Assembly: GCA_021792255.1 (NCBI GenBank) | Contig: JAJYUZ010000001.1 | Span: forward strand, 384,001 to 448,000 | Source of the DNA: Thermoplasmata archaeon | GTDB lineage: Archaea; Thermoplasmatota; Thermoplasmata; Thermoplasmatales; GCA-001856825 | Length of the DNA: 64,000 bases | Reading direction: 5' to 3' | Shown here: piece after piece, positions 48,358 through 64,000 of the stretch | Layout: each line of letters opens with the position of its first letter | How positions within the stretch are numbered: the stretch's first letter is position 1 | Translations under genes and position numbers: made by a program | Notes under the pieces: generated by a model | Told to the model about the DNA's origin: nothing | The model's database searches: none | Seen by the model: the letters and a program-made list of their open reading frames with translations, nothing else

Positions 48358-49044
48358 TTATTCCTTGAGTTTAAACCTGCCGATTTTTTCCATGATCTCA
48401 AGCAATTCCTTAGAGTACGGAGATGAATCGAATAGATCCGTTTCTGTCACTCGAGAGTAATGACCATTTGCGTGGATGATCCTTCCTTTCCCCTGGTGGA
48501 AAGCAACGTGACCCTCGAAAAATACCAAATCCCCAGGAAGTGCGGACTCGAAGTCTGGTACAGTTTCTGATGCCTTACTTTGCTGATCAGAATTTCTGGG
48601 AATCTCCGTCCCAGAAAAACGAAAGAGTCTTTGAGTATATCCGGAACAGTCAAATCCGAAATCGGATGTCCCTCCCCAAAGGTAAGGGATACCGACGAAC
48701 CTCCTTGTCAAATTGACTGGGATGAAGGTTTCCTCGATCGGGCGGAGATATCTCTTAGGTAACTTGAAAACGCTGACGTCACGCTTGCTCACATACGATC
48801 CAAAGGGAAAAGACAACTTTTCACTTCGAACTTGATGTGACAATTTATAGTGTCTTTCACTCCATTCTCCTAAGAGAGCAGTTTTCACGTATCCTATCAC
48901 TCCATCTACGCTCTTCACCTTAGAAAAAGTTCCCAAGTTCTCTAGTAATTCGACAGACTCTCCGAAGATTACCTGTGAATCTCTTTCAGATTCCGTGGAA
49001 GGTTTAGTCCAGATATCTGCAACACTGGTAACGATCATCTGCAT
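48358..49044 (-). CDS. SH3b + NlpC/P60 (C40) peptidase, YkfC/dipeptidyl-peptidase VI-like, cytoplasmic
   Basis: PYLWGG..FGFDCSG, PGDLVFF.GHV, IIHA (Cys-His-His); N-terminal SH3b-like SQVIFGESV; no signal peptide. Confidence 0.88.
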   Translation of the reverse strand: MQMIVTSVADIWTKPSTESERDSQVIFGESVELLENLGTFSKVKSVDGVIGYVKTALLGEWSERHYKLSHQVRSEKLSFPFGSYVSKRDVSVFKLPKRYLRPIEETFIPVNLTRRFVGIPYLWGGTSDFGFDCSGYTQRLFRFSGTEIPRNSDQQSKASETVPDFESALPGDLVFFEGHVAFHQGKGRIIHANGHYSRVTETDLFDSSPYSKELLEIMEKIGRFKLKE

Positions 49045-49100
49045 TAGATTTCGAATGAGTGCAGTTAGAAAAATGTTTTGCCAAAATTCCTTTCTAGGCG

Positions 49101-50351
49101 TTAATTCTCGTTCAGAAGACTGGTCAATAAATTTGGAAGTTCTATTACTTCCTCGCTCTTGTTCAAGTTTGCAAAACAGATCGGACAGGCGGTAACTATC
49201 TTTTGCGCATTCACGCTCTTCAGTTGTAGAAACCGATTTTGGGACACCTTCTCTGCTATCTCTCCATAGAGCAATTCGTCCGGACCACCACAGCAGGAAG
49301 TGTTTTCACCGCTCATCTTTGGAAGTTCTAGATTCGTAAGATTTGACAGAAGTCTTGAAGGAGAATTGTTGATCTTTCCTCCTCTGGTCAGCAAGCACGG
49401 CTCGTGGAGTGTCGTCGAAGCATCAGACTTTTTGAATTTCTTAGTGTCCAGAATGTCTAAGTAGTATAGAACTTCTAAATCGAAGCCCCTTACATATTTT
49501 GGATACTTTGAAGTCAGGAGGTCGTAGGTGTGGGGATCTGCGACAATCAATCTTTCTATTCCTTTTGCCTTTAGCAGCGAATAAACTCTGTTTGCATATT
49601 CTGAGAACTCTTTCTCGTACCCAAGATCGTACAAGAATGTTCCTGGATAAGGTTCATCCTTTCCGAGATAAGAAAACGATATTCCTGAACTTTCTAGCAG
49701 GGTGACAATGTTCCTGAGTTCAGTTTCCATATATGATTTCATTTTCTTATCTAAGCTCAGCCCTGCGACTTTTATAAGCGATGGATGCTTGGAAATGAAT
49801 CCGGCGAACCGTTGGGAGAGTTTCTTTCCTAACAATTTTTTCATCCTTCCAAGCGACGTGCTATATGGCATTAACTGGAACATATTCCCGGTGTAAAATA
49901 AAGTCCTAGAGCCATCTTCAAAATGCAGATCTTGGGCCCACTTAGAGCACTTCTCTCTGACGCCCAAGGGATTCATGTACTTCATCGTCACACTTACAAT
50001 CATCTTGGCAATCTGTTGCTCGTTCTGTTCATTAAAATAATCTAGGTTCGCAATGACCGTCCTCGACAATTCACTGACTCTACCTGCATTGACTCCAGCA
50101 GGGCACACTTGGAGACACGCATTACAGCTTAGGCAACTGTAAAATGAATCAGAGAATCTCAGCTCGATTTTCCCCTTTTCAGAAATTTCCCTGAGAAGAT
50201 AATTTCCTAAATCGACCCTTCCTCTAGCTCCGTATATTGAATTAAATCCCACGGCTGGAAAAGTTGGACAAACCGACTCACAAAAACCGCAGTTTATGCA
50301 CTTACCTGCTTCATCAGATATCAGCTGAAGTATCGGATCCTCAAACGTCAA
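49101..50351 (-). CDS. GlcF-like Fe-S subunit of a 2-hydroxyacid dehydrogenase
   Basis: CINCGFCESVCP, CLSCNACLQVCP, HEPC, CCG, TACPIC; overlaps the GlcD-like gene. Confidence 0.85.
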   Translation of the reverse strand: MTFEDPILQLISDEAGKCINCGFCESVCPTFPAVGFNSIYGARGRVDLGNYLLREISEKGKIELRFSDSFYSCLSCNACLQVCPAGVNAGRVSELSRTVIANLDYFNEQNEQQIAKMIVSVTMKYMNPLGVREKCSKWAQDLHFEDGSRTLFYTGNMFQLMPYSTSLGRMKKLLGKKLSQRFAGFISKHPSLIKVAGLSLDKKMKSYMETELRNIVTLLESSGISFSYLGKDEPYPGTFLYDLGYEKEFSEYANRVYSLLKAKGIERLIVADPHTYDLLTSKYPKYVRGFDLEVLYYLDILDTKKFKKSDASTTLHEPCLLTRGGKINNSPSRLLSNLTNLELPKMSGENTSCCGGPDELLYGEIAEKVSQNRFLQLKSVNAQKIVTACPICFANLNKSEEVIELPNLLTSLLNEN

Positions 50352-51741
50352 AGATCTTTCCCCTGTTCAGCAGATTTTTTGGATCTATGGTAGTCTTAAT
50401 GGACTTCATTAGTTCCATCGTTCCTGGTGAATTTTTGAGTCTAAATTCTTCCTTGAGCAAGTCCTTTTTTTCCATTCCGATACCGTGTTCCGCGGATACA
50501 CTTCCCGCGTGCTTTAGTGAAATCATCCCCAACTCCTTTTGGAAACGTTCTACGCTCTCCACCTTTTCCTTGCTTGAAAGATCCACAAAGATGTTTGCGT
50601 GTATATTTCCGTCCCCTATGTGACCGAAAATTGCGGCTCTGATTGCAAACGATTCCATGGATTCCTTTACTTCTTTCAGGGTAGCGGGCAGTTCTGAAGT
50701 TGGTACCACTATGTCGCTCAAAACGACACGCTCTGAAGTCGATTTCCGTTGCGAAAGTATCGAAGAGTATAGCCCTTTTCTTGCCTCGTACATTTTCTGC
50801 ATTTCACTTTCGTCAGTGGTTACCTTGACCGAAATTGGATGAAATTCTGATAGCATCGTTGCAACCTCTTTGAGTTGTCTTTCGAGAGATTCTTTTGTAG
50901 ATGCGATGTCTAATAGAAGCATATAGTTGGTTTTCTCGGGGAATTCTATCTCCTTTGTTAGCCTTATAGATTCGAGCGATATTCTGTCCATGAATTCTGC
51001 CACTTGTGGATTTATTCCCTTTCCCTTGATTGATGCAACCGCCTTTCCTGCGCTTTCTATGTCTTCAAAATAGGAGAGGACTCTTCCTACCTTTTCTGGC
51101 TTAGGCCAAATCTTTAAAATGGCCTTGGTCATAATTCCGAGAGTCCCCTCGCTTCCAATCAGTAGGGCCGTGAGATCGTACCCAGCGCTTCTCTTGAGAG
51201 TCATTCCGCCCATCTGCACGATCTCTCCATTGGGCAGTACGGCCTCTATCCCAAGCACCCAGTCCTTGGTGACCCCATACATTGCTCCCCTGAGTCCTCC
51301 AGCGTTTGTTGACAGAGACCCGCCAACAGTGCATACTCTAGAGCTCGCAGGGTCTGGTGGATAGAAATGGTCATATTTTGACAAAAACTCGTTCAAGTCG
51401 TCTAACCTGACTCCCGACTCCACGAGTGCGTATCTGTCCTCAACCTTGACTTCCAAAATCTTGTTGAACTTCGAAAGACTGATTATTACTCCGTTGCCAT
51501 TGAGAACTGATGACCCTGTCAGGGAAGAGCCACCGCCCCTTGCCGTCATCTGCACATCGTTTTCATAGCAGTACTTCATTATTTGAGACAGTTCTTGGAC
51601 GCTTTCTGGGATGACAACAGCTAGAGGGAAGTCACCTTGGTGCTCTGATGCATCTCTCGTGTAAGGAATCATTTCCTCTTTGGAAAAAAGAACGTTATTT
51701 CCTGAAATTCTCCTCAATCCTGAAGAAATATCCATTCTCAT
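50341..51741 (-). CDS. GlcD-like FAD-linked D-2-hydroxyacid (D-lactate/glycolate) dehydrogenase
   Basis: RGGGSSLTG, YPPDPAS, NAGG, GSEGTLG, GHIGDGNIH, AEHGIG motifs. Confidence 0.9.
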   Translation of the reverse strand: MRMDISSGLRRISGNNVLFSKEEMIPYTRDASEHQGDFPLAVVIPESVQELSQIMKYCYENDVQMTARGGGSSLTGSSVLNGNGVIISLSKFNKILEVKVEDRYALVESGVRLDDLNEFLSKYDHFYPPDPASSRVCTVGGSLSTNAGGLRGAMYGVTKDWVLGIEAVLPNGEIVQMGGMTLKRSAGYDLTALLIGSEGTLGIMTKAILKIWPKPEKVGRVLSYFEDIESAGKAVASIKGKGINPQVAEFMDRISLESIRLTKEIEFPEKTNYMLLLDIASTKESLERQLKEVATMLSEFHPISVKVTTDESEMQKMYEARKGLYSSILSQRKSTSERVVLSDIVVPTSELPATLKEVKESMESFAIRAAIFGHIGDGNIHANIFVDLSSKEKVESVERFQKELGMISLKHAGSVSAEHGIGMEKKDLLKEEFRLKNSPGTMELMKSIKTTIDPKNLLNRGKIFDV

Positions 51742-51953: not shown

Positions 51954-53099
51954 TTGCTTATGAAGAAGATACCGGCGTTGCTAGTGACAGTTATATTGAT
52001 TGTGTTGACCCTTTCCATAACAAATTTTGTTGCCCCTACGTATTCTTCTTTAGGTCACAGCGACAATGGAAATTATCCGGCCGTCTCTCAGGCATCTTAC
52101 TATAATGGCACAAAGGCGGTGGACTATGGGCTTATGGTTCACACCGATTACATTCACAAAGCGTACTATCCAGCAGGAATTAATCAGTCGATTCTTCAGA
52201 AGAACTTGGATTACTTTAATTCAGAGGACTGTGCCCATTTTGTCTCGGAATCTCTAATCGCGGGAGGACTCACAGTGTTGGCAAGCAATCCACCGGGGGA
52301 CAATTTGACCAGCTACGATCAAGGATACTTTGGGAACGGGAGCTATGGAATTGTAGGAGTATACAGACTCGCTGATTGGCTTGCGGGATACGACCTGCCA
52401 ATCTTCCCTAACAATGCTACGGACGAGCAAACTATCGGATATTATCCAATCCCAGCGTCCTACGCTGGCAGCCCACAAGCGACCATGTTCTATGTTTTCA
52501 ACTATACGATGTTCCCATCATATTTCCTTTCACCGGGTGACGTGGTCATGGATGGAGGCGCGGGAGGCGGTCACGCAATGCTATACATCGGAAACGGACA
52601 GGTTGTCCAAACGGACCCCGCTGCGATATGGAATTATTCCCCTGCCGTGGACAATAATATCACTTTTTATGGTATATTGAGCTACTTTGGAAAGAATGTT
52701 TCTTCGCTGTACGTTCATATTCCTACTTTTGGTGAAAAGAGCGTAAGAATATCGGTACTGAACGACAATACGAACATAACAGGAAACCTCTCTGCAGTCA
52801 AGGCTGGAGAAAAACTGACGTTTATTGGCTCTTTCCCGAACGGAGTTGGTGAAGGGAATTACACCTATCAATGGATCGTTAACGGAAAATCAATGTCCAA
52901 TAGTCAGTTCTTTAACCTCACTCCATCATCGGGAACGTACAACATTGAAGTCGTATCCACCGGTTCAACTGGATCTGTAAATACGTCTATGTCATTTACG
53001 ATTGGTGGTAGTTCAACAACGACAACCATTCTGGTTGTTGGATTGGTAATTGTGGTAGCAGCTGTCTCTGCAATATTCCTCTTCAAAAGGAGAAAATGA
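51954..53099 (+). CDS. Secreted, membrane-anchored Amidase_6-like (NlpC/P60/CHAP superfamily) hydrolase with PKD-like domain
   Basis: Signal peptide; DCAHFVSESLIAGG (cf. DCxNFVSQxLxAGG); PGDVV...GHAMLY; PKD-like NYTYQW; C-terminal TM and FKRRK tail. Confidence 0.7.
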   Translation: MLMKKIPALLVTVILIVLTLSITNFVAPTYSSLGHSDNGNYPAVSQASYYNGTKAVDYGLMVHTDYIHKAYYPAGINQSILQKNLDYFNSEDCAHFVSESLIAGGLTVLASNPPGDNLTSYDQGYFGNGSYGIVGVYRLADWLAGYDLPIFPNNATDEQTIGYYPIPASYAGSPQATMFYVFNYTMFPSYFLSPGDVVMDGGAGGGHAMLYIGNGQVVQTDPAAIWNYSPAVDNNITFYGILSYFGKNVSSLYVHIPTFGEKSVRISVLNDNTNITGNLSAVKAGEKLTFIGSFPNGVGEGNYTYQWIVNGKSMSNSQFFNLTPSSGTYNIEVVSTGSTGSVNTSMSFTIGGSSTTTTILVVGLVIVVAAVSAIFLFKRRK

Positions 53100-53182
53100 G
53101 TTGGCGATTGGTGAAAGAGAACTTCGCGCGCATAATACCTCTCGAATGAGGAAGGACAAGCTTACTCTAGATACGGTGAAGT

Positions 53183-54319
53183 ATGAAGACTAGCGAAACG
53201 TATGCATTCTCTACGATATATACCGGACAAGGGATAGTCCACAGGGGATTCCTGAAGATAATCGACGGATCGATTGAGGAATTAGGTGAGGCTCCTCAGA
53301 ATTCCATTGACCTCACGGATAGGATTGCAGTCCCCGGATTCATAGATATACACACTCATGGAATTAATGGAATCGACTCCTTCAACCTGACGAAGACAGA
53401 GCTCCTAGAGTGGAGCCAATTGTTACTAGAAAGGGGGACACTGGGATTTGTGCCGACTATCGTTTCTGCTCCTATTGAGAAGATAAAGGGTTTCTTGGGA
53501 GTCTTAAAGAGTTCTGAAGGATCTGAAAACGGAGCCGAAATAATTGGAGGAAGAATGGAAGGGCCCTTCATAAGTCATGTCAGGAAGGGAGCACACGATC
53601 CGTCTTTACTCAGAGTTCCTGCGAATACCAATTTTCAAGCAATCTTGTCGCAATTCAAAGGAATTCTTAAGATTGTAGACATTGCACCCGAACTGGACGG
53701 AGCTGGAGAGCTAATTTCAGAACTGGTCAGAGAAGACGTGGTGGTATCAATCGGTCACACGGATTGCGATTCCGTCACCGCGAAACGCGCATTTGCCTTG
53801 GGAGCGACGCTGGTGACGCACCTGTACAATGCGATGCGACCATTTCATCATCGATTCCCCGGGGCAATTGACTTCGCATTGTTAGAGAAGAATGTTATGG
53901 CAGAGATTATCTGTGATCTCGTTCACGTATCTCCTGAAGCAATCAAACTCGCCATCAGTAATAAAGGAGCAAAAAGAATTGTGCTTATTACTGACTCGAC
54001 GCCAGCAACTGGCAGGCCCGATGGAAAATACAAACTAGGTCGACTTGATGTTCTAAAACAGGGAGATAAGTGCACGATAAGTGGGACAGAGACGCTGGCA
54101 GGAAGTGTACTCACCATGGATAGAGCAGTCAAGAATCTAGTAGACTTAAAATATGATCTGGATGAGGTGGTCAAGATGTCTTCAAAAAATCCTGCTACCT
54201 TACTCGGAAGGAAAGACTTGGGCAGTATAAAGAAAGGGAAAAAGGCCAATATTACAATTCTGGACAAATCCCTAAGAGTAAGAGGTGTCGTTTCCAGGGG
54301 TGCGCTGATAGAGTTCTAG
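53183..54319 (+). CDS. nagA: N-acetylglucosamine-6-phosphate deacetylase
   Basis: PGFIDIHTHG, EGPFI, KGAH, GHT, THLYNAM, DLVHV, ITDS, LAGS. Confidence 0.94.
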   Translation: MKTSETYAFSTIYTGQGIVHRGFLKIIDGSIEELGEAPQNSIDLTDRIAVPGFIDIHTHGINGIDSFNLTKTELLEWSQLLLERGTLGFVPTIVSAPIEKIKGFLGVLKSSEGSENGAEIIGGRMEGPFISHVRKGAHDPSLLRVPANTNFQAILSQFKGILKIVDIAPELDGAGELISELVREDVVVSIGHTDCDSVTAKRAFALGATLVTHLYNAMRPFHHRFPGAIDFALLEKNVMAEIICDLVHVSPEAIKLAISNKGAKRIVLITDSTPATGRPDGKYKLGRLDVLKQGDKCTISGTETLAGSVLTMDRAVKNLVDLKYDLDEVVKMSSKNPATLLGRKDLGSIKKGKKANITILDKSLRVRGVVSRGALIEF

Positions 54320-54353: not shown

Positions 54354-55196
54354 ATGCCTGAAAGGGAAAGATTGCCAGACACCGAAAAGTCAAATCCTAG
54401 AACAACGAACATCCCTGAACTTTCAACCTATGAAATCGTCAATCTGATTCATTCGGAGGACATCAGTGCATTTAGAGCCATTGACGGCACAACAAGACCC
54501 ATTTCTAAAGTCATAGATTCTTGTTTCAAAAAACTAATGATGGGTGGAAGGGTTGTGTATGTTGGATCTGGCACCAGTGGCAGAATCGGAGCACAAGACG
54601 CGATTGAAATGTGGCCAACGTATGGACTGGGTAAGGAGACATTTGATTATGTGATAGCAGGAGGTGAACGAGCCCTGACCAGGTCAATCGAAGGTGCAGA
54701 AGACTCAAGAGAAAGTGCGGTAGAAATGATCGAGAAGAAAAACATTACTGCTAACGACTGTGTAATAGGTATTACCGCATCTGGCCGAACGCCATTCGTG
54801 TTCGGAGCTTTGGAGAGCGCATCTAAAAAGGGAGCCTATACCGCTGCGATAGTGAATTCGAGAAATTCTCCATTGAAGGAAGTATCGAGAAATGTCATAT
54901 TCCTGAACACGGGAGAAGAAGTCATCCAGGGATCAACGAGAATGAAAGCTGCGACCGCTCAAAAGATGGTTCTGAACATAATCAGCACATCTCTTGCAAT
55001 CAAACTGGGACGAACTTACGGAAATCAAATGATTCATATGAAGGCGTCTTACAATGCAAAGCTAAGAAACAGGGCAGTCAGAATTCTAGCACAAAGGTTC
55101 GATATTTCTGTGATCGAAGCAGAGAAGAGACTCAAATCGCACAAGTACAACTTGAGCGAAACAGTAAAAGAGCTGGAACAGGTCAAGAGAGATTGA
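54354..55196 (+). CDS. murQ: N-acetylmuramic acid 6-phosphate etherase
   Basis: TEKSNP, GSGTSGRIGAQDAIE..PTYG, IEGAED (both catalytic Glu kept), ASGRTP, GSTRMKAATAQKMVLN, GNQM. Confidence 0.92.
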   Translation: MPERERLPDTEKSNPRTTNIPELSTYEIVNLIHSEDISAFRAIDGTTRPISKVIDSCFKKLMMGGRVVYVGSGTSGRIGAQDAIEMWPTYGLGKETFDYVIAGGERALTRSIEGAEDSRESAVEMIEKKNITANDCVIGITASGRTPFVFGALESASKKGAYTAAIVNSRNSPLKEVSRNVIFLNTGEEVIQGSTRMKAATAQKMVLNIISTSLAIKLGRTYGNQMIHMKASYNAKLRNRAVRILAQRFDISVIEAEKRLKSHKYNLSETVKELEQVKRD

Positions 55197-57212: not shown

Positions 57213-58218
57213 AGAGATAGCACGCCACTAGGTGGTCTTTTTCAACTTCTCTGAACTTAGGCCTCTCCTTCCTGCAGTTGTCCATTACGAATGGACACTT
57301 GTTCGCGTAACTGCATTCATTTTTCCCCTCGTTGACGTATTCAGATATCTGTCCCTTTGACTCGTCCAAATTCCACTTCTTCTTGGGATCGGGGACAGGT
57401 ATTGAATCTATCAGGGACTTAGTGTATGGATGCATGGGGTTGTTTATGATCCTGTCAGATTTGGCGACTTCCACCAGCTGACCGAGATGCATGACCGCAA
57501 TTCTATCCGAGACATATTGAGTGACTGCAATGTCGTGTGAGATGAACATCATTGATTTGCCAAACTTGCGTTTCAGATCCAGAAGAATATTTAGGATGTC
57601 GGCTCTCAGTGAAACATCAAGCATAGAAACTGGCTCATCGGCGATGATGAAGTCCGGATTGTTGATTACCGCCCTGGCTATACCTATTCTTTGCCTTTGA
57701 CCGCCACTCAGTTGGTTCGGGAATTTATTCAGGAACTGTTCCGCTGGTGTCAGGCCAACCATTTCTATGGTCTCGATCGCCTTATTCAGAACTTCTTCCT
57801 CTTTCAGTTCCTTGTGAAACACTCTGAGAGGCGTAACTATTGATTTATAGACTGAGATCACCGGGTTTAGAGAACTGTATGGGTCCTGGAAAATCATCTG
57901 TGTCTTTTCCCTGAAACCGAACAGCTGGCGCCCTGTGTATTTCATTATATTGTTACCATTGAAAATTATTTGTCCGGAATCGACGTCCATTAACTTCAAC
58001 AGCGCAAGTCCTAGAGTCGTCTTTCCACTGCCGCTCTCCCCTATGAGTCCGAAAATTTCGTGCTCTTTGATCTGCAGTTTGACCTGGTCCAGGGCTCGTG
58101 TTGTCCTGCTCTCTCTCCTTATGATCCCTCTCTTGTTGATGAAATCCTTCGTGAGTTCATTAGTTTCGATCGTACTACTTTCCATCAGATCACCTTCCAT
58201 AGAGATGACACGCGGCAT
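57205..58218 (-). CDS. Opp/Dpp-type ABC ATPase (OppF-like)
   Basis: GESGSGKT, FQDPYSSLNP, LSGGQRQR, DEPVSMLD, HPYT, C-terminal Cys motif. Confidence 0.93.
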   Translation of the reverse strand: MPRVISMEGDLMESSTIETNELTKDFINKRGIIRRESRTTRALDQVKLQIKEHEIFGLIGESGSGKTTLGLALLKLMDVDSGQIIFNGNNIMKYTGRQLFGFREKTQMIFQDPYSSLNPVISVYKSIVTPLRVFHKELKEEEVLNKAIETIEMVGLTPAEQFLNKFPNQLSGGQRQRIGIARAVINNPDFIIADEPVSMLDVSLRADILNILLDLKRKFGKSMMFISHDIAVTQYVSDRIAVMHLGQLVEVAKSDRIINNPMHPYTKSLIDSIPVPDPKKKWNLDESKGQISEYVNEGKNECSYANKCPFVMDNCRKERPKFREVEKDHLVACYLYE

Positions 58219-59161
58219 AGTGTCCCTGTGAAACCATTTTCAATTCTGGCACCTCGTTCTTACACCTGTCGAATACGCTGTCGCACCTGTCCTTGAATGG
58301 GCATCCTTTAATTTCCTCTGAAAGATCTGGTGGAGTTCCTCTGATTCCCTTGACGGACTTCTCTTGTTCGAGAGATGGAATCGAGGCCAGTAGGGCCTTT
58401 GTATATGGATGCTGAGGACTGTCGAAGATTTCGTTAGATGGTCCACTTTCTGCAATCTTACCCGCGTACATCACATTGACTTTGTCTGCTATGTTAGCCA
58501 CCAGAGAAATATCGTGCGTAATGAAGATCAGTGAAATTGAAAGGTCATCCTTTAACTTGAGTAGCCTCGTCAGTATCTGTCTCTGAACCACTACGTCAAG
58601 GGCAGTCGTGGCCTCATCTGCTATTAGAATCTTAGGATCACAAGACAATGCCAGTGCTATGTTGACTCTTTGTTTCATCCCACCGCTCAACTCGTGAGGG
58701 AAAGATTTTCTAACGTTCTTGGTGAGCCCCGCAAGTTGAAGCATATAGTCGATCCTCTCGTCCACCTCATCTTCCTTGTACCCGTGTTCAACCATAACGT
58801 CCCCCATCTGATCCTCAATTCTCATTACTGGATTTAGTGAGTTCATAGCACTCTGGAATATCATAGAGACTTCTTTCCATCTGTACTTTCTGAGCGCGGA
58901 TGGTTTCATCTTTAAAACATCAGACTTCCCCTCACTCCCGTAGTACACAACTTTTCCACCCTTGATTTTCCCCGGATATTCGAGGAGTTTAAGGAAGGTC
59001 ATTGCCAGTGTGGATTTACCAGATCCGCTTTCACCCACTATCCCAATCACTTCTCCCTTGTTGACATCAAGACTGACGTGTGAAACGGCTTTTATTGTCC
59101 TATCAGGAAGTACGTAGTCTACGGAGAGATCGACCACTTCCATAATCGTTGAAGTCGTCAT
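58190..59161 (-). CDS. Opp/Dpp-type ABC ATPase (OppD-like)
   Basis: GESGSGKS, FQSAMNSLNP, LSGGMKQR, DEATTALD, HPYT. Confidence 0.93.
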   Translation of the reverse strand: MTTSTIMEVVDLSVDYVLPDRTIKAVSHVSLDVNKGEVIGIVGESGSGKSTLAMTFLKLLEYPGKIKGGKVVYYGSEGKSDVLKMKPSALRKYRWKEVSMIFQSAMNSLNPVMRIEDQMGDVMVEHGYKEDEVDERIDYMLQLAGLTKNVRKSFPHELSGGMKQRVNIALALSCDPKILIADEATTALDVVVQRQILTRLLKLKDDLSISLIFITHDISLVANIADKVNVMYAGKIAESGPSNEIFDSPQHPYTKALLASIPSLEQEKSVKGIRGTPPDLSEEIKGCPFKDRCDSVFDRCKNEVPELKMVSQGHYAACHLYGR

Positions 59162-60063
59162 TTCCCATTCCCCTTTGAAGCTTTTGAAATTTCGTATATC
59201 GCATTCGATAGGAAATTAGCGCCAATTCCCAATATCACGATCCCCAATCCCGGGGGAAGTAGCCACCACCATGCTCTGTAAACGATTCCATCTTCGGCCT
59301 GGAAGAAATATAGCATGGTCCCCCAGTTCACAGACCTTAGGTCTCCAAGACCAAAAAAGGCAAGACCAGCTTGAGCTACTACTCCACCGACTGCCAAGAA
59401 TATCGCATTGATGAAGATTATAGGAAGGAGGTTCGGAAGGATATCTCTGATAATAATCTGCATTCCATTCAGCCCCGAGAGCTTTGAAGCCATGATGTAT
59501 GGTCTTTCTTTGAGAGACAGTGTTTGCGATCTTACTACCCTAGCAAGAAAAGGCCAACTCAAGATCGAGAGGACAAAAATCGTAGTTTCCAGAGTCGGTG
59601 GGAGAAATGCGGAAAGTATGACGAGCAAAGGAAATCCCGGGATCACCAGCAGAACGTCTACTGCCCTCATCAGTACGTCGTCGACCTGTCTTCCAAAGTA
59701 TCCTGCCACCACTCCAACTAGAACTCCTATGAAAGCAGAAAGGAGCGCGATGCTTAATCCCACGACCAGAGATGTTCCAGTACCGATGAGGAACCAAGAG
59801 AATATGTCAGCCCCTTCGTAATCGGTACCTAGCAGGTGTTGATAACTCGGTGGTTGGAAGGCTAGAGAGTTAGTGTTATAGGGCGAATACGGAGCAAAAA
59901 AGTATCCGAATATCGCAAGAAGACCCAATGCCGTCAGAATTATGAGACCCGCCCGTCCTTTTTTGTGCGACCATACTCCCTTCATGAAGCTCCTGAACCT
60001 GTTCATCGGGCTATTGCTTGCCAACGCCCTTTGTATTTCTTCCGCTCTTGCTTCGGACATCAT
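59158..60063 (-). CDS. Opp/Dpp-type ABC permease (OppC-like)
   Basis: HLLGTD, ARVVRSQ, WGTML, WWWLLPPG. Confidence 0.92.
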   Translation of the reverse strand: MMSEARAEEIQRALASNSPMNRFRSFMKGVWSHKKGRAGLIILTALGLLAIFGYFFAPYSPYNTNSLAFQPPSYQHLLGTDYEGADIFSWFLIGTGTSLVVGLSIALLSAFIGVLVGVVAGYFGRQVDDVLMRAVDVLLVIPGFPLLVILSAFLPPTLETTIFVLSILSWPFLARVVRSQTLSLKERPYIMASKLSGLNGMQIIIRDILPNLLPIIFINAIFLAVGGVVAQAGLAFFGLGDLRSVNWGTMLYFFQAEDGIVYRAWWWLLPPGLGIVILGIGANFLSNAIYEISKASKGNGK

Positions 60064-61058
60064 TTTAAAACCACCCTTGGATCCAAATACGCATACAGCA
60101 AATCGACTATAAAATTGGCAATAATGGTAGTAAATGTAATCATGACGAAAATTCCCTCGATCAGAGGATAATCAGAGACCGTCACGGCATTGTATAGAAC
60201 ATATCCAATCCCGGGGTAAGAGAATACGACTTCGACCAGAAACGCACCTCCAACGATTGATGCAAACGCTAGTGCGACGCTGGTCGCAACAGGTAACCTG
60301 GCGTTCTTGTTCACATACTGTTTCCTTATCGTATTGTCACTAAGTCCTTTGGCCTTGGCAAGGAGAACATAGTCCTCGTCTAGCACAGTCACTACCGTAT
60401 TTCTCATCAGAAGTGCAAATCCCGTGAAAGACGTGATAACAAGAGTTATAATCGGGAGCGCAGAATGTCTGAGTACCGATAGGACGAATGGAAGATTAGT
60501 TCCAGGGGTTACCGTTATTCCATATCCCTGAGCCACAGGGAATATATGAAAACCATTGATCACAATCAGAACTGCAAAAACGAGTTGGAATATTAGAGCC
60601 AGCCAGAAGTATGGTACTGAAGTGAGAGATATAGAAAAGCCCTGCAAGAATGAATCGCTTGCGCCTCTCTTCCATCCTGAATAGGAGCCAATGAATATTC
60701 CTAACACGATTGAAATCATCAAAGAGGTACCTAGGAGAAACAGGGTCCAAGGGAGATGTGTCATAATCAATTGCGAGACGGGCTCTGGATAATAATAGAA
60801 CGAAGGTCCAAAGTTTCCATGAATAAGGGACCCCCAAAATCCGACATATTGTTGCCACAGGGTACCTCCAAGATGGAGTTCGCTCTCGATTATCTTGAGC
60901 TGGTATGGATTTATGCGCCCTGCATATTTTGTAAGCAAAACATCCATAACTGGATTTCCCGGTACAGCCCTAGGAAGAAGAAAGACAAGGGTCAAAGCAA
61001 TGAAAAGAGTGATCGCCATATATATGGTTCTGCGTATAAGATACCGAAGCGTTATCAT
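60060..61058 (-). CDS. Opp/Dpp-type ABC permease (OppB-like)
   Basis: PGNP, EDYVLLAKAKGL, EVVFSYPGIG, DYPL, LDPRV. Confidence 0.92.
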   Translation of the reverse strand: MITLRYLIRRTIYMAITLFIALTLVFLLPRAVPGNPVMDVLLTKYAGRINPYQLKIIESELHLGGTLWQQYVGFWGSLIHGNFGPSFYYYPEPVSQLIMTHLPWTLFLLGTSLMISIVLGIFIGSYSGWKRGASDSFLQGFSISLTSVPYFWLALIFQLVFAVLIVINGFHIFPVAQGYGITVTPGTNLPFVLSVLRHSALPIITLVITSFTGFALLMRNTVVTVLDEDYVLLAKAKGLSDNTIRKQYVNKNARLPVATSVALAFASIVGGAFLVEVVFSYPGIGYVLYNAVTVSDYPLIEGIFVMITFTTIIANFIVDLLYAYLDPRVVLK

Positions 61059-61337
61059 TTCAATGTTATTAGCTCATGTGATATAGTCCTTTTTGAACCT
61101 GAACTTACCCTCCCCTCACTTCAATCTCATAGTCGTATACTTTGGTGACGAACCTAAAAATTAAGATCGGAGGTGCTCGTCTATCTAAGATAATTCTAAT
61201 TGCGAGTTTTCATAATTTAAATTTTAATTGAAATGCGTTCTTAACGACCCACTTTTTTAACTGTTTTAAGTGGGGTTTAAGTAGTTTATCTCTTAAAAGA
61301 CCAGAAATCTATAAATTCAGGATGTATTATAAAGTCT

Positions 61338-63182
61338 ATGACGTCTGAAAATTCTGGAAACAAAGGAACTAAGGTACGGAGTAAAATCTTGACAATAGCA
61401 ATTGTTACCTTCGTTCTGACTATGTCTTTCGCAGTTCTTTTTGCGAATGGAAACGCAGCAACGCAACCCAGCGGAACGTATATCTGGGGTACTCCGGTAA
61501 GTACTCCGGTCACGGACCTTAACCCGCTTGTGGCAACCAATCTTGCAGGCGAAGCGACAGCAATAATGTATCCAACAAGTCTTCTGTATCCTCTGTCAGA
61601 TGGCAGTTTGATACCCTGGCTAGCAGAAAACTACACGATAAGTTCAAACGGCTTGGTCTATACATTTAATTTAGTCCACAACGCAACGTGGATGAATGGA
61701 ACGAGTGTCGCTGGTCCAATAACTGCTCAGGATGTTGCATTTACATTCAATGTCCTTAAAGCAAATTCGACGCTCGATTCGTATGGAGTAGATCCCTATC
61801 TCAAGTCTGTCACCGCTGTGAACAACTATACGGTCCAATTCGTGCTTAACTCATCTTCAATAATGATGTTGACGTATCTTGCAACACAAACGGTAATACC
61901 CGCCGCGTGGGGATCCCTAGTGAATGGCAATCTTTCGGCGGTAGGAGGCTACAACAATCTTGACACACCTCACCAACTGCAGGCAGGGCCTTTTATCCTA
62001 CAGTCTGCAAGTGAAACCTCATTAAACTTCGTTGCAAATACTCATTTCTGGATGGGTACACCTCACGTACTGAATTTGATCGTTGAGCCGTTTAAGTCTA
62101 CCTCCGCAATGACTCTCTCATTCCAAAGTGGAGCTATTGACGCAGAGTATCCGGCCATCAGCGACTATGCTGCACTAAGCACAACCTCTAATGTAGTCAA
62201 CAATATTTACAAGGAACCCTGGTCATACTACCTGTGGGACAACACACAAGTAGCACCATACAACAACACGAGTTTCAGACAGGGGCTTGCTTATGCAATT
62301 AACAAGACTCAAATCATGCAGAAGGCAGAAGATGGCATAGGCGGAAGCGGATCGTATGGAGGAGAACCTTGGACGAATACTTCTTGGTGGGCAGCAGGTT
62401 TGCCCGAGTATAAGTACAACACCACACTCGCTACGCAGTCATTCGAAGCCGCTGGTCTTACTATGAAGGGAGGTTTCTGGACATATCCAAACGGGACTGC
62501 AGTGCAGATCAAGATCGTGGATCCACCAGTTTCTGATTGGACTACGGCTGCCTCTTTCATTGCCAATGACTTGGGCCAGGCAGGATTCCAGGTAACGGAG
62601 TCTATAGTGCCTTTCAGTACATGGGCAACCGACATGTTCCACAGCAAAGTGTCCCAAGCAACTAATGTCATCAGCTACTTTGGTGCAACGCCATCATACT
62701 CCAACGCTTGGTATGTGTTACAGGACCTTTATTCCTACAACAGCTTCTGGGATGGCTATATAACTCACTGGAACAATGCAACGGTCAACAACATATTCAA
62801 TCAGACAGCGACCTTGGTCAATAACAACACATTACTGCTCCAAAAACTTGCAGTAGCACAGAGAATAATTGCACAGCAGGTACCAATGGTTCTGATAGGA
62901 GATGTTGGCAATTACTATGCGTATAACGATCAGAAGATAACCGGATTTGTTGCAAACGAGCCACCAGATGGAACCTACAATCTGATAAGAATATCAGTAC
63001 CATCCTCGGTAACGACTACCCCAACTTCGACGATACCTTCCTACGTGTATGCACTGATAGTAGTGATTGTTCTGATAGTTGTCATAGTGCCTATAGTCTA
63101 CATAATGTCCAAGAGAGGAAAGGCGAAGAAAACGGAAGAAGCCCCCTCGACACAACCGCAGGAACCTGAAAAGAAAACATAG
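61338..63182 (+). CDS. Family-5 ABC substrate-binding protein (OppA/DppA-like), C-terminally membrane-anchored
   Basis: Signal peptide, LNP, PWLAE, ITAQDVAFT, GPF, FRQGLAYAIN; Ser/Thr linker, TM and charged tail. Confidence 0.9.
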   Translation: MTSENSGNKGTKVRSKILTIAIVTFVLTMSFAVLFANGNAATQPSGTYIWGTPVSTPVTDLNPLVATNLAGEATAIMYPTSLLYPLSDGSLIPWLAENYTISSNGLVYTFNLVHNATWMNGTSVAGPITAQDVAFTFNVLKANSTLDSYGVDPYLKSVTAVNNYTVQFVLNSSSIMMLTYLATQTVIPAAWGSLVNGNLSAVGGYNNLDTPHQLQAGPFILQSASETSLNFVANTHFWMGTPHVLNLIVEPFKSTSAMTLSFQSGAIDAEYPAISDYAALSTTSNVVNNIYKEPWSYYLWDNTQVAPYNNTSFRQGLAYAINKTQIMQKAEDGIGGSGSYGGEPWTNTSWWAAGLPEYKYNTTLATQSFEAAGLTMKGGFWTYPNGTAVQIKIVDPPVSDWTTAASFIANDLGQAGFQVTESIVPFSTWATDMFHSKVSQATNVISYFGATPSYSNAWYVLQDLYSYNSFWDGYITHWNNATVNNIFNQTATLVNNNTLLLQKLAVAQRIIAQQVPMVLIGDVGNYYAYNDQKITGFVANEPPDGTYNLIRISVPSSVTTTPTSTIPSYVYALIVVIVLIVVIVPIVYIMSKRGKAKKTEEAPSTQPQEPEKKT

Positions 63183-63194
63183 TATTTGACCATC

Positions 63195-63222
63195 TTTTTT
63201 TTATTTTTCTTTATTTTCTTTC
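63195..63222 (+). terminator. U-rich archaeal terminator downstream of the OppA-like gene
   Basis: Long T-rich tract beginning about 12 nt after the stop codon. Confidence 0.55.
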
Positions 63223-63304
63223 AATTTTAAATCACAGCTAACCTCTTTTGAATCGCTAGGATTTGTGACCACATTTTAATTATACGAACCTGAATTCTCT
63301 CCAG

Positions 63305-64000
63305 TCACCGGTAGATTAGGAATTCTTCTCTATTCTCGATAAACAACGACTCATCAGATTTCAGTTTCTCTTCAAGCGCTTCCATTTCACCGTTTTGGAG
63401 GTAGTTTCTTATCAGAGAAGTGCCAGCAACTCGGTCAAAATAGTCGTTGTGAAACTGGAATTCTTCTGGATAGTCGTGAATTAATAAGTCCAGTAGCCTG
63501 GCACTGAATATGAATGGCCTAAATTTGTTCCTGTCTCTTATGTGAACCTCAATGCCCTGACATTTCATACCCTGGAACTTTGAGAACGTCGGTGTGAACC
63601 TGATCTCGCTTACTGCCACACCGGGCATATTAAGATCGTTGATTTCGTGGGCGAATTTGTGACCATCTATCCACGGTGCACCGATTATCTCAAACGGTTT
63701 TGTAGTTCCCCTTCCTTCAGAGACGTTTGTTCCCTCGAACATTACCTGTCCGGGATAAACGGTGGCCGTGTCAATTGAGGGCATGTTGGGAGACGGAAGT
63801 GTCCATGGCCATCCCGTTTCATCAAACCACATTTTTCTATTCCAAGAAGCCATCCTTGAGATTCTTAAATCGACCCTGTTCTCGAACAAATTTGCATTGG
63901 TCATCGAGGCAAGCTCCCCTAACGTCATTCCGTGCCTCATCGTAATGGCATAGGCACCAATATAAGATCTGTACTTGGGATAATCAAGAATTGGCCCTTC
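63305..64000 (-). CDS. namZ: Exo-beta-N-acetylmuramidase NamZ (DUF1343/YbbC family), 5' part outside the window
   Basis: Frame open to the window end: EGPILD...RHGMTLGELA, W.LPSPNMP, YPG, EGTNVSEGRGTTKPFE.IGAPW, FTPTFSKF, FDRVAGT. Confidence 0.88.
   Translation of the reverse strand, partial: EGPILDYPKYRSYIGAYAITMRHGMTLGELASMTNANLFENRVDLRISRMASWNRKMWFDETGWPWTLPSPNMPSIDTATVYPGQVMFEGTNVSEGRGTTKPFEIIGAPWIDGHKFAHEINDLNMPGVAVSEIRFTPTFSKFQGMKCQGIEVHIRDRNKFRPFIFSARLLDLLIHDYPEEFQFHNDYFDRVAGTSLIRNYLQNGEMEALEEKLKSDESLFIENREEFLIYR

What the first reader, a model, noticed from the sequence alone, without database searches (positions are those of the whole stretch)
48358..64000. Apparent bacterial peptidoglycan-scavenging and catabolism system in an archaeon
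Seen: thirteen contiguous genes - YkfC-like NlpC/P60 peptidase, GlcF, GlcD, surface-anchored Amidase_6-like hydrolase, NagA, MurQ, AmiE-like serine hydrolase, GNAT, five Opp genes - plus NamZ, in a window full of archaeal markers (cca, nac, arcS, trmB). Established: in Bacillus subtilis NamZ, AmiE, MurQ, NagA and YkfC act in cell-wall recycling; MurNAc is a bacterial wall sugar, and Thermoplasmatales make no peptidoglycan. Inference: this archaeon cuts bacterial walls at its surface, imports fragments, splits sugar from stem peptide and catabolises both, so a self-recycling pathway would serve to eat bacterial necromass or prey. Isolated archaeal peptidoglycan hydrolases are known; I do not know of a complete catabolic cluster like this, but could not check the literature.
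Basis: partly seen in the sequence, partly recalled or inferred. Interest (0 to 1): 0.95.

Follow-up and report, generated by a model that had tools for sequence, protein, structure and literature searches.

The report
Archaeal pathway for eating bacterial cell walls
A wall-less acid-mine archaeon, and some of its relatives, carry a complete-looking set of bacterial-type genes for importing and digesting fragments of bacterial cell wall, which suggests they feed on dead or shedding bacteria.

Summary
The cluster runs about 8 kb past the window end and adds a MurK-like kinase, NagZ-like GH3, dipeptide epimerase, PBP4-type peptidase, diaminopimelate decarboxylase and a C45 hydrolase. It is not a chimera: composition matches the genome, depth is flat with bridging contigs from other studies, and the cluster recurs in related archaeal genomes, two of them closed. 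NamZ occurs in 31 of 168 genomes of the order and 10 of 401 sampled in the phylum. Only the binding protein and one orphan surface protein are membrane-anchored, and every enzyme lacks a signal peptide. So fragments are probably imported by the Opp system and dismantled in the cytoplasm. No MurB, glycan-strand cutter or classical amidase was found. This favours scavenging released fragments over attacking walls. The 'Amidase_6-like' call for the surface protein is not supported; it belongs to an orphan archaeal family with a plausible Cys/His hydrolase core. Ten literature searches found no archaeal precedent. Nothing is shown biochemically or by expression.

The parts
48358..49044 (-). YkfC-like NlpC/P60 cysteine peptidase with N-terminal SH3b domain; proposed gamma-D-Glu-(meso-DAP/L-Lys) endopeptidase acting on free stem peptide; no signal peptide
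   Evidence: Pfam NLPC_P60 70.9 bits and SH3_16 33.1 bits. Best PDB match is 3H41, then 'dipeptidyl-peptidase VI' entries. C133, H179 and H191 are invariant in 7 orthologues. No TM segment.
49101..50351 (-). Fe-S / CCG-domain subunit (GlcF/LdhH-like); proposed electron-transfer partner of the FAD oxidase
   Evidence: Fer4_8 and CCG domains. NCBIfam GlcF 79.6 bits and LdhH 73 bits, both below cut-off. Overlaps the next gene by 11 nt.
50341..51741 (-). FAD-linked oxidase (GlcD-like); proposed D-lactate dehydrogenase for the D-lactate released by MurQ
   Evidence: FAD_binding_4 151 bits and FAD-oxidase_C 198.6 bits. TIGR00387 404.7 vs 567.9, below cut-off. Sits within the fetched ~40-kb cluster stretch in G002, G018, G021 and G023; no hit in the G029 stretch nor in the G077, G094 and G107 stretches.
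51954..53099 (+). Orphan archaeal surface protein: N-terminal TM/signal anchor, about 215-aa domain with invariant Cys93/His207/Gln219/Asp221 (candidate papain-like hydrolase), Ig/PKD-like domain, C-terminal TM anchor followed by KRRK; 14 N-x-S/T sequons
   Evidence: No Pfam or NCBIfam family. Sub-threshold NLPC_P60, PKD and Amidase_6 hits. 87 homologues, all unannotated; the names that carry an organism are archaeal. Invariant residues. AF2 pLDDT 82.4. Foldseek hits only the Ig/PKD part. One full-length representative in 1.84 billion proteins. TM segments at 8-26 and 359-377.
53183..54319 (+). NagA, GlcNAc-6-phosphate deacetylase
   Evidence: TIGR00221 282.7 bits vs cut-off 225.65.
54354..55196 (+). 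MurQ, MurNAc-6-phosphate etherase (gives GlcNAc-6-P plus D-lactate)
   Evidence: NF003915 311.2 vs 168. 187 bits to solved MurQ 4LZJ/1NRI over residues 10-263. DAIE82 and EGAED113 motifs present.
55183..56265 (-). AmiE-like serine hydrolase (beta-lactamase/PBP fold); proposed MurNAc-L-Ala amidase; cytoplasmic
   Evidence: PF00144 154.1 bits. Best NCBIfam hit PBP4B 124.8 bits, below cut-off. S66-L-T-K and H310-T-G motifs. B. subtilis amiE is listed under PF00144 in PMC10653849 Table 1. Its 3' end overlaps the end of murQ by 14 nt.
56313..57212 (-). GNAT-domain protein (C-terminal about 100 aa), last-but-one gene of the opp transcription unit; role unknown
   Evidence: Acetyltransf_7, _1 and _10 hits. 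Weak PDB hit to 'predicted acetyltransferase' 5KF1. Present in the G002, G018, G077 and G094 clusters.
57205..61058 (-). OppF, OppD (ATPases) and OppC, OppB (6-TM permeases) of an Opp/Dpp-family ABC importer
   Evidence: ABC_tran plus oligo_HPY twice; BPD_transp_1 plus OppC_N; BPD_transp_1 plus BPD_transp_1_N. Six TM segments each in OppB and OppC.
61338..63182 (+). OppA-like family-5 substrate-binding protein with N-terminal anchor, Thr/Ser-rich linker and C-terminal TM anchor; 16 sequons; ligand unknown
   Evidence: SBP_bac_5 175.7 bits. TM segments at 13-31 and 572-590. Weak, about equal similarity to glutathione/peptide, nickel and chitin/oligosaccharide binders.
63305..64000 (-). NamZ (GH171) exo-beta-N-acetylmuramidase, C-terminal 231 codons. 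The gene (404 aa, no signal peptide) starts beyond the window end; the whole gene is L003:1305-2519(-) = C3:447305-448519
   Evidence: NamZ_N 225.7 and NamZ_C 170.6 bits for the full protein. 198 bits to DUF1343 structure 4K05. Starts at the mature domain, whereas bacterial relatives carry signal peptides.
64000..64000 (.). Marker for the part of the system that lies BEYOND the window end. Coordinates are in L003 = C3:446001-466000; add 62000 to get extrapolated window coordinates.
- MurK-like BcrAD_BadFG sugar kinase, L003:2638-3690(+).
- NagZ-like GH3, L003:3724-5148(-).
- YkfB-like dipeptide epimerase, L003:5288-6352(+).
- PBP4/S13 DD-peptidase, L003:6524-7615(+).
- LysA diaminopimelate decarboxylase, L003:7711-8979(-).
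- C45 Ntn hydrolase, L003:9122-10396(-); membership tentative.
   Evidence: Kinase: PF01869 117.3 bits; PDB 8ZO3 MurNAc/GlcNAc kinase 100.5 bits and 2E2N hexokinase 109 bits.
GH3: 205.3 bits; NF003740 187.3 vs 207; KHFPGHG167-x4-DSH178.
Epimerase: NF041118 222.8 vs 500; PDB 3JVA 225.5 bits and 1JPM 214.8 bits.
S13: TIGR00666 109.5 vs 107.8; S30-N-M-K and K308-T-G.
LysA: TIGR01048 342.3 vs 297.9; DapB and DapF not found.
C45: NF040521 123.2 vs 85; found only in the G002 and G018 clusters among those fetched.
None has a TM segment.

Best explanation
This is a bacterial-type pathway for catabolising peptidoglycan fragments. It was acquired by gene transfer and is long resident in a subset of wall-less acidophilic archaea of the Thermoplasmata kind, rebuilt so that digestion happens inside the cell.

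Proposed steps (all inferred from families and context; none is shown by experiment):
1. Bacterial turnover products, or fragments of dead cells, are captured by a glycosylated, membrane-anchored OppA-like binding protein and imported by OppBCDF. An orphan surface protein with a Cys/His core may trim or un-crosslink fragments outside the cell.
2. In the cytoplasm, NagZ removes terminal GlcNAc. The AmiE-like serine hydrolase splits MurNAc from the stem peptide. NamZ removes terminal MurNAc from peptide-free glycan.
3. A MurK-like kinase makes MurNAc-6-P and GlcNAc-6-P, replacing the bacterial PTS.
4. MurQ gives GlcNAc-6-P plus D-lactate. NagA gives GlcN-6-P. A NagB-II-like deaminase encoded elsewhere gives fructose-6-P.
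5. D-lactate is oxidised to pyruvate by the GlcD/GlcF-type dehydrogenase.
6. The stem peptide is trimmed by the PBP4-type DD-peptidase and cut by the YkfC-like endopeptidase into L-Ala-D-Glu and meso-DAP. The epimerase makes L-Ala-L-Glu for ordinary dipeptidases. The orphan LysA turns meso-DAP into lysine.

The ecological role is scavenging of bacterial wall material in acid mine environments.
For: Specific families over curated cut-offs: MurQ, NagA, LysA, PBP4, NamZ_N/C, NLPC_P60 plus SH3_16, PF00144.

Catalytic motifs and residues are kept: MurQ, GH3 (KHFPGHG-x4-DSH), SxxK in both serine hydrolases, and Cys-His-His in the YkfC-like protein.

Nearest solved structures are MurQ, DUF1343/NamZ-family proteins, a MurNAc/GlcNAc kinase, a YkfC-type peptidase and L-Ala-D/L-Glu epimerases.

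The genes are one contiguous block of about 24 kb with overlapping or tightly spaced units.

The block is conserved, with shuffled order and roughly 30-80% identity, in G002, G018, G021, G023, G029, G094 and the closed genomes G077 and G107.

No signal peptide or TM segment in any enzyme, whereas bacterial NamZ relatives carry signal peptides.

No MurB (0 of 18 genomes of the genus), and only AroA-like sub-threshold MurA hits.

DapB and DapF not found, and LysX not found, so LysA has no biosynthetic context.

B. subtilis NagZ, AmiE and NamZ together digest peptidoglycan from the non-reducing ends, and amiE is a PF00144 protein (PMC8054146 passages; PMC10653849 Table 1).

The DNA is held by runs labelled mine drainage, mine tailings and sediment metagenomes from 3 studies.
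Against: There are no expression data: no RNA holder was listed. There is no biochemistry.

Several calls are below curated cut-offs:
- TIGR00274 for MurQ, 260 vs 302.
- NagZ, 187 vs 207.
- Epimerase, 223 vs 500.
- GlcD, 405 vs 568.
- GlcF.
- NagK-type kinase, 68 vs 370.
- NagB-II-like, 102 vs 430.

The kinase is as close to a 'hexokinase' entry as to MurK.

The binding protein's ligand cannot be inferred.

No AnmK and no S66 LD-carboxypeptidase were found, so anhydro-muropeptides and tetrapeptide trimming are not covered in the usual way.

No shared operator motif links the transcription units.

The trait is patchy: 2 of 18 genomes in the genus and 31 of 168 in the order.

LysA also occurs in three genomes of the genus where no NamZ, and no MurQ over its cut-off, was detected; these are 83-87% complete.

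The GlcDF genes sit beside the cluster only in family f1 among the loci fetched.
Confidence: 0.75

Rival explanations
1. Active attack on bacteria. The archaeon degrades intact walls of live or dead cells at its own surface, using the anchored orphan hydrolase, and lives as a predator or wall-lytic grazer.
For: The orphan surface protein has an invariant Cys/His/Gln/Asp set. Its predicted topology has a helix starting at the Cys and a strand starting at the His, which fits a papain-like hydrolase. Its His motif resembles that of RipA/RipB-type peptidoglycan endopeptidases at E about 0.05. It lies within 20 kb of NamZ in 13 genomes. It co-occurs with NamZ in 17 of the 20 genomes that have it, against 14 of the 148 that lack it.
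Against: Family membership is not established. No fold match was obtained for the catalytic domain, and the domain-only model failed at pLDDT 38. No GH73, GH25, SLT, Amidase_2 or Amidase_3 was found in the genome. All known-family enzymes are cytoplasmic. The surface protein is missing from 14 NamZ-positive genomes, including G077 and G029.
Confidence: 0.12
2. General amino-sugar and peptide scavenging. The cluster mainly serves chitin or glycoprotein GlcNAc and ordinary or D-amino-acid peptides, and the peptidoglycan-type enzymes are promiscuous.
For: Opp-family binding proteins include chitin-oligosaccharide and peptide binders, and this OppA is not specifically close to any of them. The kinase is as close to a hexokinase entry as to MurK. 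NagA, NagZ and NagB serve any GlcNAc source. Several specific calls are below curated cut-offs.
Against: MurQ and NamZ have only MurNAc substrates known (PMC8054146 passages). The YkfC-type peptidase, the L-Ala-D/L-Glu epimerase, the DD-peptidase and DAP decarboxylase all fit one molecule, the murein stem peptide. These parts travel together in nine fetched genomes.
Confidence: 0.09
3. Self-recycling. These archaea make an unrecognised MurNAc-containing polymer and the cluster recycles it.
For: In bacteria the same genes recycle the cell's own wall (PMC5061867 passages).
Against: MurB was found in 0 of 18 genomes of the genus. MurA hits reach 82 bits against a cut-off of 393, and such below-cut-off hits also ring in archaeal controls. 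DapB and DapF were not found. 16 of 18 genomes of the genus lack NamZ.
Confidence: 0.03
4. Assembly or binning artefact: a bacterial fragment joined to an archaeal contig.
For: Nearly every family in the cluster is typically bacterial. The nearest named NamZ relatives outside the archaeal group are bacterial.
Against: The cluster sits at 432-456 kb of a 498-kb contig, with an archaeal-type cca 24 kb upstream. GC is flat. Tetranucleotide distance of the three 10-kb windows is at the 19th-23rd percentile of 153 windows. Depth is flat with no joints in 4 runs. A contig from another study bridges 46763-49021, and a single contig covers 44231-58693. The same cluster is in nine other archaeal assemblies, including two single-contig genomes.
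Confidence: 0.01

Closest known systems
Bacillus subtilis murQ-murR-murP-amiE-nagZ-namZ recycling operon together with ykfABCD (stem-peptide catabolism)
   Same: The enzyme families are the same: MurQ, a PF00144 AmiE-type protein, GH3 NagZ, GH171 NamZ, the YkfC NlpC/P60 plus SH3b peptidase, and the YkfB epimerase. Sources: PMC8054146 and PMC5061867 passages, and PMC10653849 Table 1. The content of the ykf operon is recalled, not read here.
   Different: In B. subtilis NagZ, AmiE and NamZ are secreted, and MurNAc enters through the MurP PTS (PMC8054146 passages). Here all three lack signal peptides, there is no PTS gene in the cluster, a MurK-like kinase is present, and uptake is by an Opp-type ABC system. 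No MurR-type regulator was seen. The host makes no peptidoglycan, so the pathway serves feeding, not recycling.
Gram-negative cytoplasmic muropeptide recycling (E. coli AmpG/Opp, NagZ, AmpD, LdcA, AnmK, MurQ)
   Same: The logic is import first, then cytoplasmic dismantling. Opp serves as a recycling permease (PMC10622912, abstract start in the search listing only). NagZ, MurQ and NagA are cytoplasmic.
   Different: No AmpD-type Amidase_2, no LdcA (S66) and no AnmK were found. A PF00144 hydrolase and NamZ are present instead. The details of the E. coli pathway are recalled.
Tannerella forsythia MurNAc scavenging (NamZ1/NamZ2, MurK, MurQ)
   Same: This is an organism unable to make MurNAc that lives on wall fragments from neighbouring bacteria, with NamZ paralogues and a MurK kinase (preprint 10.1101/2021.12.02.470905 and PMC10465942, abstract starts in search listings only). 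Two NamZ types also occur in these archaea.
   Different: Tannerella is a bacterium that uses MurNAc to build its own wall. Here no wall is built and both sugar and peptide appear to be burnt or salvaged.
Laterally acquired peptidoglycan-degradation genes in anaerobic ciliates
   Same: A peptidoglycan-free lineage acquired pbp4b, NamZ, murQ and lysA from bacteria, which the authors interpret as letting it decompose bacterial cell walls (PMC13198582, passages).
   Different: The hosts are eukaryotes and the genes are not in one cluster. AnmK is present there but was not found here. No archaeal case is described in that paper's passages.

Membership tests
MurQ (MurNAc-6-P etherase) | Score over curated family cut-offs | tested here: met
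   NF003915 311.2 vs 168 and NF009222 261.4 vs 255. The stricter equivalog TIGR00274 is 260.2 vs 302, not met.
MurQ (MurNAc-6-P etherase) | Full-length SIS-fold alignment to solved MurQ with both acidic catalytic motifs | tested here: met
   187 bits to 4LZJ/1NRI over residues 10-263. DAIE at 82 and EGAED at 113. That these motifs hold the catalytic Glu residues is recalled.
MurQ (MurNAc-6-P etherase) | Etherase activity on MurNAc-6-P | not testable with these tools
   Needs an enzyme assay.
NamZ / GH171 exo-beta-N-acetylmuramidase | Both Pfam domains (NamZ_N, NamZ_C) over gathering score | tested here: met
   225.7 and 170.6 bits vs 26.9 and 25. 198 bits to DUF1343 structure 4K05.
NamZ / GH171 exo-beta-N-acetylmuramidase | Secreted, as the founding member is | tested here: not met
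   10 of 10 archaeal copies start at the mature domain with no signal peptide, whereas bacterial relatives carry one. This concerns location, not fold membership.
AmiE-type MurNAc-L-Ala amidase (PF00144) | Beta-lactamase/PBP fold with SxxK nucleophile motif, in a murQ context | tested here: met
   PF00144 154.1 bits. S66-L-T-K. The gene overlaps the 3' end of murQ. B. subtilis amiE is listed under PF00144 (PMC10653849 Table 1).
AmiE-type MurNAc-L-Ala amidase (PF00144) | Specific orthology to AmiE, and amidase activity | tested here: inconclusive
   No AmiE-specific model exists in the libraries used. The best NCBIfam hit is PBP4B, 124.8 vs 385. PDB neighbours are esterases and D-amino-acid amidases or peptidases at E 1e-12 to 1e-6.
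NagZ (GH3 beta-N-acetylglucosaminidase) | Curated NagZ model cut-off | tested here: not met
   NF003740 187.3 vs 207. The GH3 N-terminal domain scores 205.3 vs 27.
NagZ (GH3 beta-N-acetylglucosaminidase) | KH(F/I)PG(H/L)G-x4-D(S/T)H signature (motif recalled) | tested here: met
   KHFPGHG at 167, DSH at 178.
YkfC / dipeptidyl-peptidase VI (NlpC/P60 plus SH3b) | NLPC_P60 and bacterial SH3 domains with a Cys-His-His triad | tested here: met
   Invariant C133, H179 and H191. The best PDB match is 3H41; that 3H41 is a YkfC is recalled.
YkfB-type L-Ala-D/L-Glu epimerase | Curated equivalog cut-off | tested here: not met
   NF041118 222.8 vs 500 and NF011708 129.2 vs 343. Even so, the top PDB hits are dipeptide epimerases, 3JVA at 225.5 bits and 1JPM at 214.8 bits.
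LysA (diaminopimelate decarboxylase) | Curated equivalog cut-off | tested here: met
   TIGR01048 342.3 vs 297.9.
MurK (MurNAc/GlcNAc kinase, BcrAD_BadFG) | Family domain and closeness to a characterised MurK | tested here: inconclusive
   PF01869 117.3 bits. 8ZO3 MurNAc/GlcNAc kinase 100.5 bits, but 2E2N hexokinase 109 bits.
NlpC/P60 or Amidase_6 (for the orphan surface protein 51954-53099) | Pfam gathering score or profile-profile match | tested here: not met
   NLPC_P60 15 bits vs 23 and Amidase_6 14.4 vs 23.2. hhalign probability 20% over 26 columns. PDB profile hits at E about 0.05.
NlpC/P60 or Amidase_6 (for the orphan surface protein 51954-53099) | Papain-like fold with the Cys at a helix N-terminus and the His on a beta-strand | tested here: inconclusive
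   DSSP of the model shows a helix at 93-103 and strands at 207-213 and 216-220, coinciding with invariant C93, H207, Q219 and D221. Foldseek gave no match to this domain. The domain-only model failed.

The most novel reading that the evidence does not exclude
A subset of wall-less acidophilic archaea are dedicated consumers of bacterial murein. They depend on bacteria for lysine (meso-DAP converted by an orphan LysA, with neither lysine pathway detected). They also carry a previously unknown, archaea-only family of surface-anchored cysteine hydrolases that cleaves peptidoglycan at very low pH. That would be a cross-domain nutritional dependency and a new peptidoglycan hydrolase family.
Probability: 0.2. 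Interest if true: 0.88.

Novelty: new variant of a known kind. Interest (0 to 1): 0.74.

Why it matters
Peptidoglycan is a large pool of microbial necromass, and its breakdown is usually credited to bacteria and to eukaryotic grazers. A conserved, near-complete murein catabolic pathway in archaea that make no murein would give these abundant acid-mine heterotrophs a defined food source. It would link archaeal growth to bacterial turnover.

It also shows how a recycling pathway can be turned into a feeding pathway by removing signal peptides and swapping the uptake system.

The idea is directly testable, because the cluster is present in two closed genomes of the order. It also points to an orphan surface protein family that may be a new acid-stable wall hydrolase, and to possible lysine salvage from meso-DAP.

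Tried and rejected

**Orphan surface protein.**
- The protein-atlas search gave no usable hit.
- Foldseek against PDB and BFVD matched only the Ig/PKD module.
- A domain-only AlphaFold model from a 7-row alignment failed at pLDDT 38 and was not used.
- hhalign of the orphan family against the YkfC-like alignment gave 20% probability.
- The profile search of 1.84 billion representatives found no relative of the N-terminal domain among the 150 of 234 hits listed. The remaining 84 were not seen.

**Shared operator.** I searched 15 cluster intergenic stretches (1,720 nt) against 779 genome stretches for a shared operator motif. Nothing survived Bonferroni correction; the eye-catching CTGAA was 12 observed vs 5.5 expected.

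**Expression.** No RNA holder was listed for the 10-kb stretch, so nothing can be said about expression.

**NamZ tree.** The tree is the quick search only; the careful search did not finish in 300 s. Support is SH-aLRT, several branches are long, and every second database hit was left out (60 of 119 used). Most database rows carry no taxon name, so no donor is named. I first read the higher identity to bacterial NamZ (47-52%) as a sign of separate acquisition for G000. The tree does not require that.

**Papers.** PMC3102087 held 'muropeptide' only in its reference list. PMC12448462 mentions peptidoglycan once, unrelated. PMC3750248 and PMC7285479 had zero occurrences of the wall-related terms searched.

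Full report
**What is there.**
The window is C3:384001-448000 of a 1.587-Mb, 11-contig genome, 93.55% complete and 0.46% contaminated. Contig C3 is 498,134 bp.

Pfam and NCBIfam confirm most names:
- NlpC/P60 plus SH3b
- an Fe-S/CCG protein
- a GlcD-like FAD oxidase
- NagA, over its cut-off
- MurQ, over two of three curated cut-offs
- a PF00144 beta-lactamase-fold protein
- a GNAT-domain protein
- OppF, OppD, OppC and OppB
- a family-5 binding protein
- NamZ

The ORF at 51954-53099 has no family at normal thresholds.

**The cluster is larger than the finding.**
Reading on past the window end (L003 = C3:446001-466000) gives:
- the full NamZ (404 aa)
- a BcrAD_BadFG sugar kinase
- a GH3 enzyme whose best model is NagZ
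- an enolase-superfamily protein whose best model and best solved relatives are L-Ala-D/L-Glu dipeptide epimerases
- a PBP4/S13 DD-peptidase, marginally over cut-off
- LysA, over cut-off
- a C45 Ntn hydrolase

After these come PEPCK and unrelated genes. The system therefore spans about C3:432358-456396, roughly 24 kb and 20 genes.

**Not an artefact.**
- GC is flat at about 0.44 across the window and all contigs.
- The three 10-kb windows covering the cluster lie at the 19th-23rd percentile of tetranucleotide distance among 153 windows of the six largest contigs.
- An archaeal-type CCA-adding enzyme, over its cut-off, lies 24 kb upstream on the same contig.
- The 45-55 kb stretch is held by 10 runs from 3 studies, labelled mine drainage, sediment and mine tailings metagenomes.
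- Laying Logan contigs of four runs on 40-60 kb shows flat depth and no joints.
- A 2,259-bp contig from a run not flagged as a possible source bridges the amylase gene into the YkfC-like gene. In one run, which may be the source, a single 14,463-bp contig covers 44231-58693.

Most decisively, the same gene set occurs in other archaeal assemblies of the same order:
- It is collinear from PEPCK to YkfC in G002, of the same genus.
- It is rearranged in G018, G021 and G023 (same family), in G029 and G094, and in two single-contig genomes, G077 (1.94 Mb) and G107 (2.23 Mb).

**Who has it.**
Where sources name the homologues of the orphan surface protein, the labels are 'Thermoplasmata archaeon', 'Thermoplasmataceae archaeon', 'Methanomassiliicoccales archaeon', 'uncultured archaeon' and one 'Bathyarchaeia archaeon'. 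I did not name the genome further.

- NamZ_N is found in 31 of 168 genomes of the order: 13 of 74 high-quality genomes and 12 of 37 genera.
- By family, not counting G000: f1 4/24, f4 2/16, f5 0/21, f7 24/103.
- In an even sample of the phylum it is in 10 of 401 genomes. Outside this order it is only in one genus (g79, family f30, 3 of 3).
- MurQ is over its cut-off in 7 of 40 nearest relatives.
- In the window's own genus only G000 and G002 carry it.

Identities of roughly 30-80% and shuffled gene order point to long residence with much loss, or to transfer within the order.

The quick NamZ tree shows two deep archaeal types:
- Type A is G000, G002, G018, G029, G077a and G094, with SH-aLRT support 86.
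- Type B is G021, G023, G077b and G107, with support 100.
- The tree has long branches and used 60 of 119 database hits.

The archaeal copies are not scattered among the signal-peptide-bearing, presumably bacterial, sequences. The few named neighbours are Aminicenantia, Acidobacteriota and 'bacterium'. No donor can be named from this.

**How it most likely works.**
A Kyte-Doolittle scan and inspection of N-termini show membrane anchors only in OppA and the orphan protein, each with an N-terminal and a C-terminal segment and many N-x-S/T sequons. OppB and OppC are the permeases. Every enzyme is soluble with no signal sequence.

Bacterial relatives of NamZ begin with typical signal peptides, while all 10 archaeal copies start at the mature domain. 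In B. subtilis, NagZ, AmiE and NamZ are secreted, jointly digest peptidoglycan from the non-reducing ends, and the sugars enter through PTS transporters (PMC8054146, passages). The archaeal system therefore looks re-plumbed: fragments are imported first and dismantled in the cytoplasm.

Inferred sugar branch:
- NagZ removes GlcNAc.
- The PF00144 protein removes the peptide. B. subtilis amiE is itself a PF00144 protein (PMC10653849 Table 1).
- NamZ removes MurNAc.
- The kinase phosphorylates the sugars. Its solved relatives include a MurNAc/GlcNAc kinase.
- MurQ yields GlcNAc-6-P and D-lactate.
- NagA deacetylates. A NagB-II-like gene elsewhere (below cut-off) would finish the route to fructose-6-P.
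- The GlcD/GlcF pair is well placed to oxidise the D-lactate. It sits beside the cluster in the five family-f1 genomes examined, but not in the four f7 loci.

Inferred peptide branch:
- The S13 DD-peptidase trims the peptide.
- The YkfC-like endopeptidase cuts it; Cys-His-His is invariant.
- The dipeptide epimerase acts on L-Ala-D-Glu.
- LysA decarboxylates meso-DAP.

LysA is an orphan. DapB and DapF were not found and the DapA-like hit is below cut-off in this genome. LysX was over cut-off in 0 of 18 genomes of the genus. LysA itself is present in only 5 of 18. This suggests meso-DAP from murein is decarboxylated to lysine. However, three of those five genomes show no NamZ and no MurQ over cut-off, so the link is not exclusive.

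**Scavenger or attacker.**
MurB was found in 0 of 18 genomes of the genus, and MurA-like hits are far below cut-off. So the substrate is foreign. GH73, GH25, SLT, Amidase_2, Amidase_3, AnmK and S66 were all not found in this genome. There is thus no recognisable way to cut intact glycan strands. This favours use of fragments already released by bacterial turnover, autolysis or other organisms' enzymes.

**The orphan surface protein.**
It is the one open element.
- Its 87 homologues are all unannotated.
- In 1.84 billion representative proteins the family collapses to one full-length representative plus fragments. Every other listed hit (150 of 234 listed) matches only the C-terminal Ig/PKD-like module.
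- The full-length model is confident: pLDDT 82.4, pTM 0.75. It places invariant C93 at the start of a helix, invariant H207 at the start of a strand, and Q219 and D221 on the next strand. That is the layout expected of a papain-like or NlpC/P60-like hydrolase.
- Family membership failed every test, and no fold match to that domain was obtained.
- It is genetically tied to the system. It lies inside the cluster in 7 fetched genomes, and within 12-19 kb of NamZ on the same contig in 6 more.
- It is present in 17 of 31 NamZ-positive genomes, against 3 of 137 NamZ-negative ones. Relatives are not independent, so this is descriptive.
- It is absent from G077 and G029, which have the rest of the system, so it is an accessory part.

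**Comparison and novelty.**
The parts are known families. The closest systems are:
- the B. subtilis murQ/amiE/nagZ/namZ and ykf genes
- Gram-negative cytoplasmic recycling
- MurNAc scavenging by Tannerella
- a recently reported set of the same genes laterally acquired by anaerobic ciliates (PMC13198582, passages)

What is new:
- The host domain: archaea without murein.
- The re-plumbed topology.
- The joining of the sugar, D-lactate, stem-peptide and DAP branches in one locus.
- The orphan surface protein.

The NamZ founding paper describes the family as mainly in Bacteroidetes, with some Firmicutes, Actinobacteria and gamma-proteobacteria. It has no occurrence of 'archaea'. Ten full-text searches and term look-ups in two likely papers found no archaeal description. 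Supplements were closed and subscription journals are not held, so a passing mention elsewhere cannot be excluded.

**Verdict.**
I rate it a new variant of a known kind of system, with interest 0.74.

Noticed in passing
window 38068-48314: An alpha-glucan utilisation locus directly abuts the murein cluster: a MalA-like alpha-glucosidase, a TrmB-like regulator, two sugar ABC permeases, an SBP_bac_8 binding protein and a GH13 alpha-amylase. Together they make a carbohydrate-scavenging neighbourhood.
   Followed up: partly
window 42020-42050, 43939-43980, 57884-57914, 58671-58700: Contigs from several runs of different studies end or branch at the same places, with loose ends. These are probably strain variants or short repeats (one site lies in an ABC ATPase gene). 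None lies at the suspected join at 46-50 kb.
   Followed up: no
G077:C1:1615419-1616105 and 1620616-1621206; also G080 and G090: Some genomes of the order carry two NamZ paralogues about 5-9 kb apart. They belong to two deeply separated types, reminiscent of the NamZ1/NamZ2 pair reported for Tannerella.
   Followed up: partly
L003:1305-2519 (NamZ residues about 92-113): The archaeal NamZ has an insertion of about 20 residues relative to the solved DUF1343 protein 4K05. Its significance is unknown.
   Followed up: no
G008:C86:17445-18656: The LysA match in this genome of the same genus contains an in-frame TAG, so it is possibly a pseudogene or a sequencing error.
   Followed up: no
window 56313-57212: The 299-aa protein has a GNAT domain only in its last 100 or so residues; its N-terminal 190 or so residues match nothing. 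It is co-transcribed with the opp genes (8-nt overlap) and is conserved in four other clusters. Its role is unknown; acetylation of de-N-acetylated sugars or of D-amino acids is only a guess.
   Followed up: partly
window 582-19512: Aconitase, an MMPL/RND transporter, a FadB-like fusion protein, an HdrD/TfrB-like CCG protein and a FadD-like ligase lie upstream. This fits an aerobic heterotroph that oxidises fatty acids.
   Followed up: no
G000:C6:241202-242104: A 329-aa SIS-domain ORF is the best NagB-II-like candidate (101.8 bits vs cut-off 430). It is unlinked to the cluster here, whereas in G029 a 322-aa SIS ORF sits right next to nagA-murQ.
   Followed up: partly
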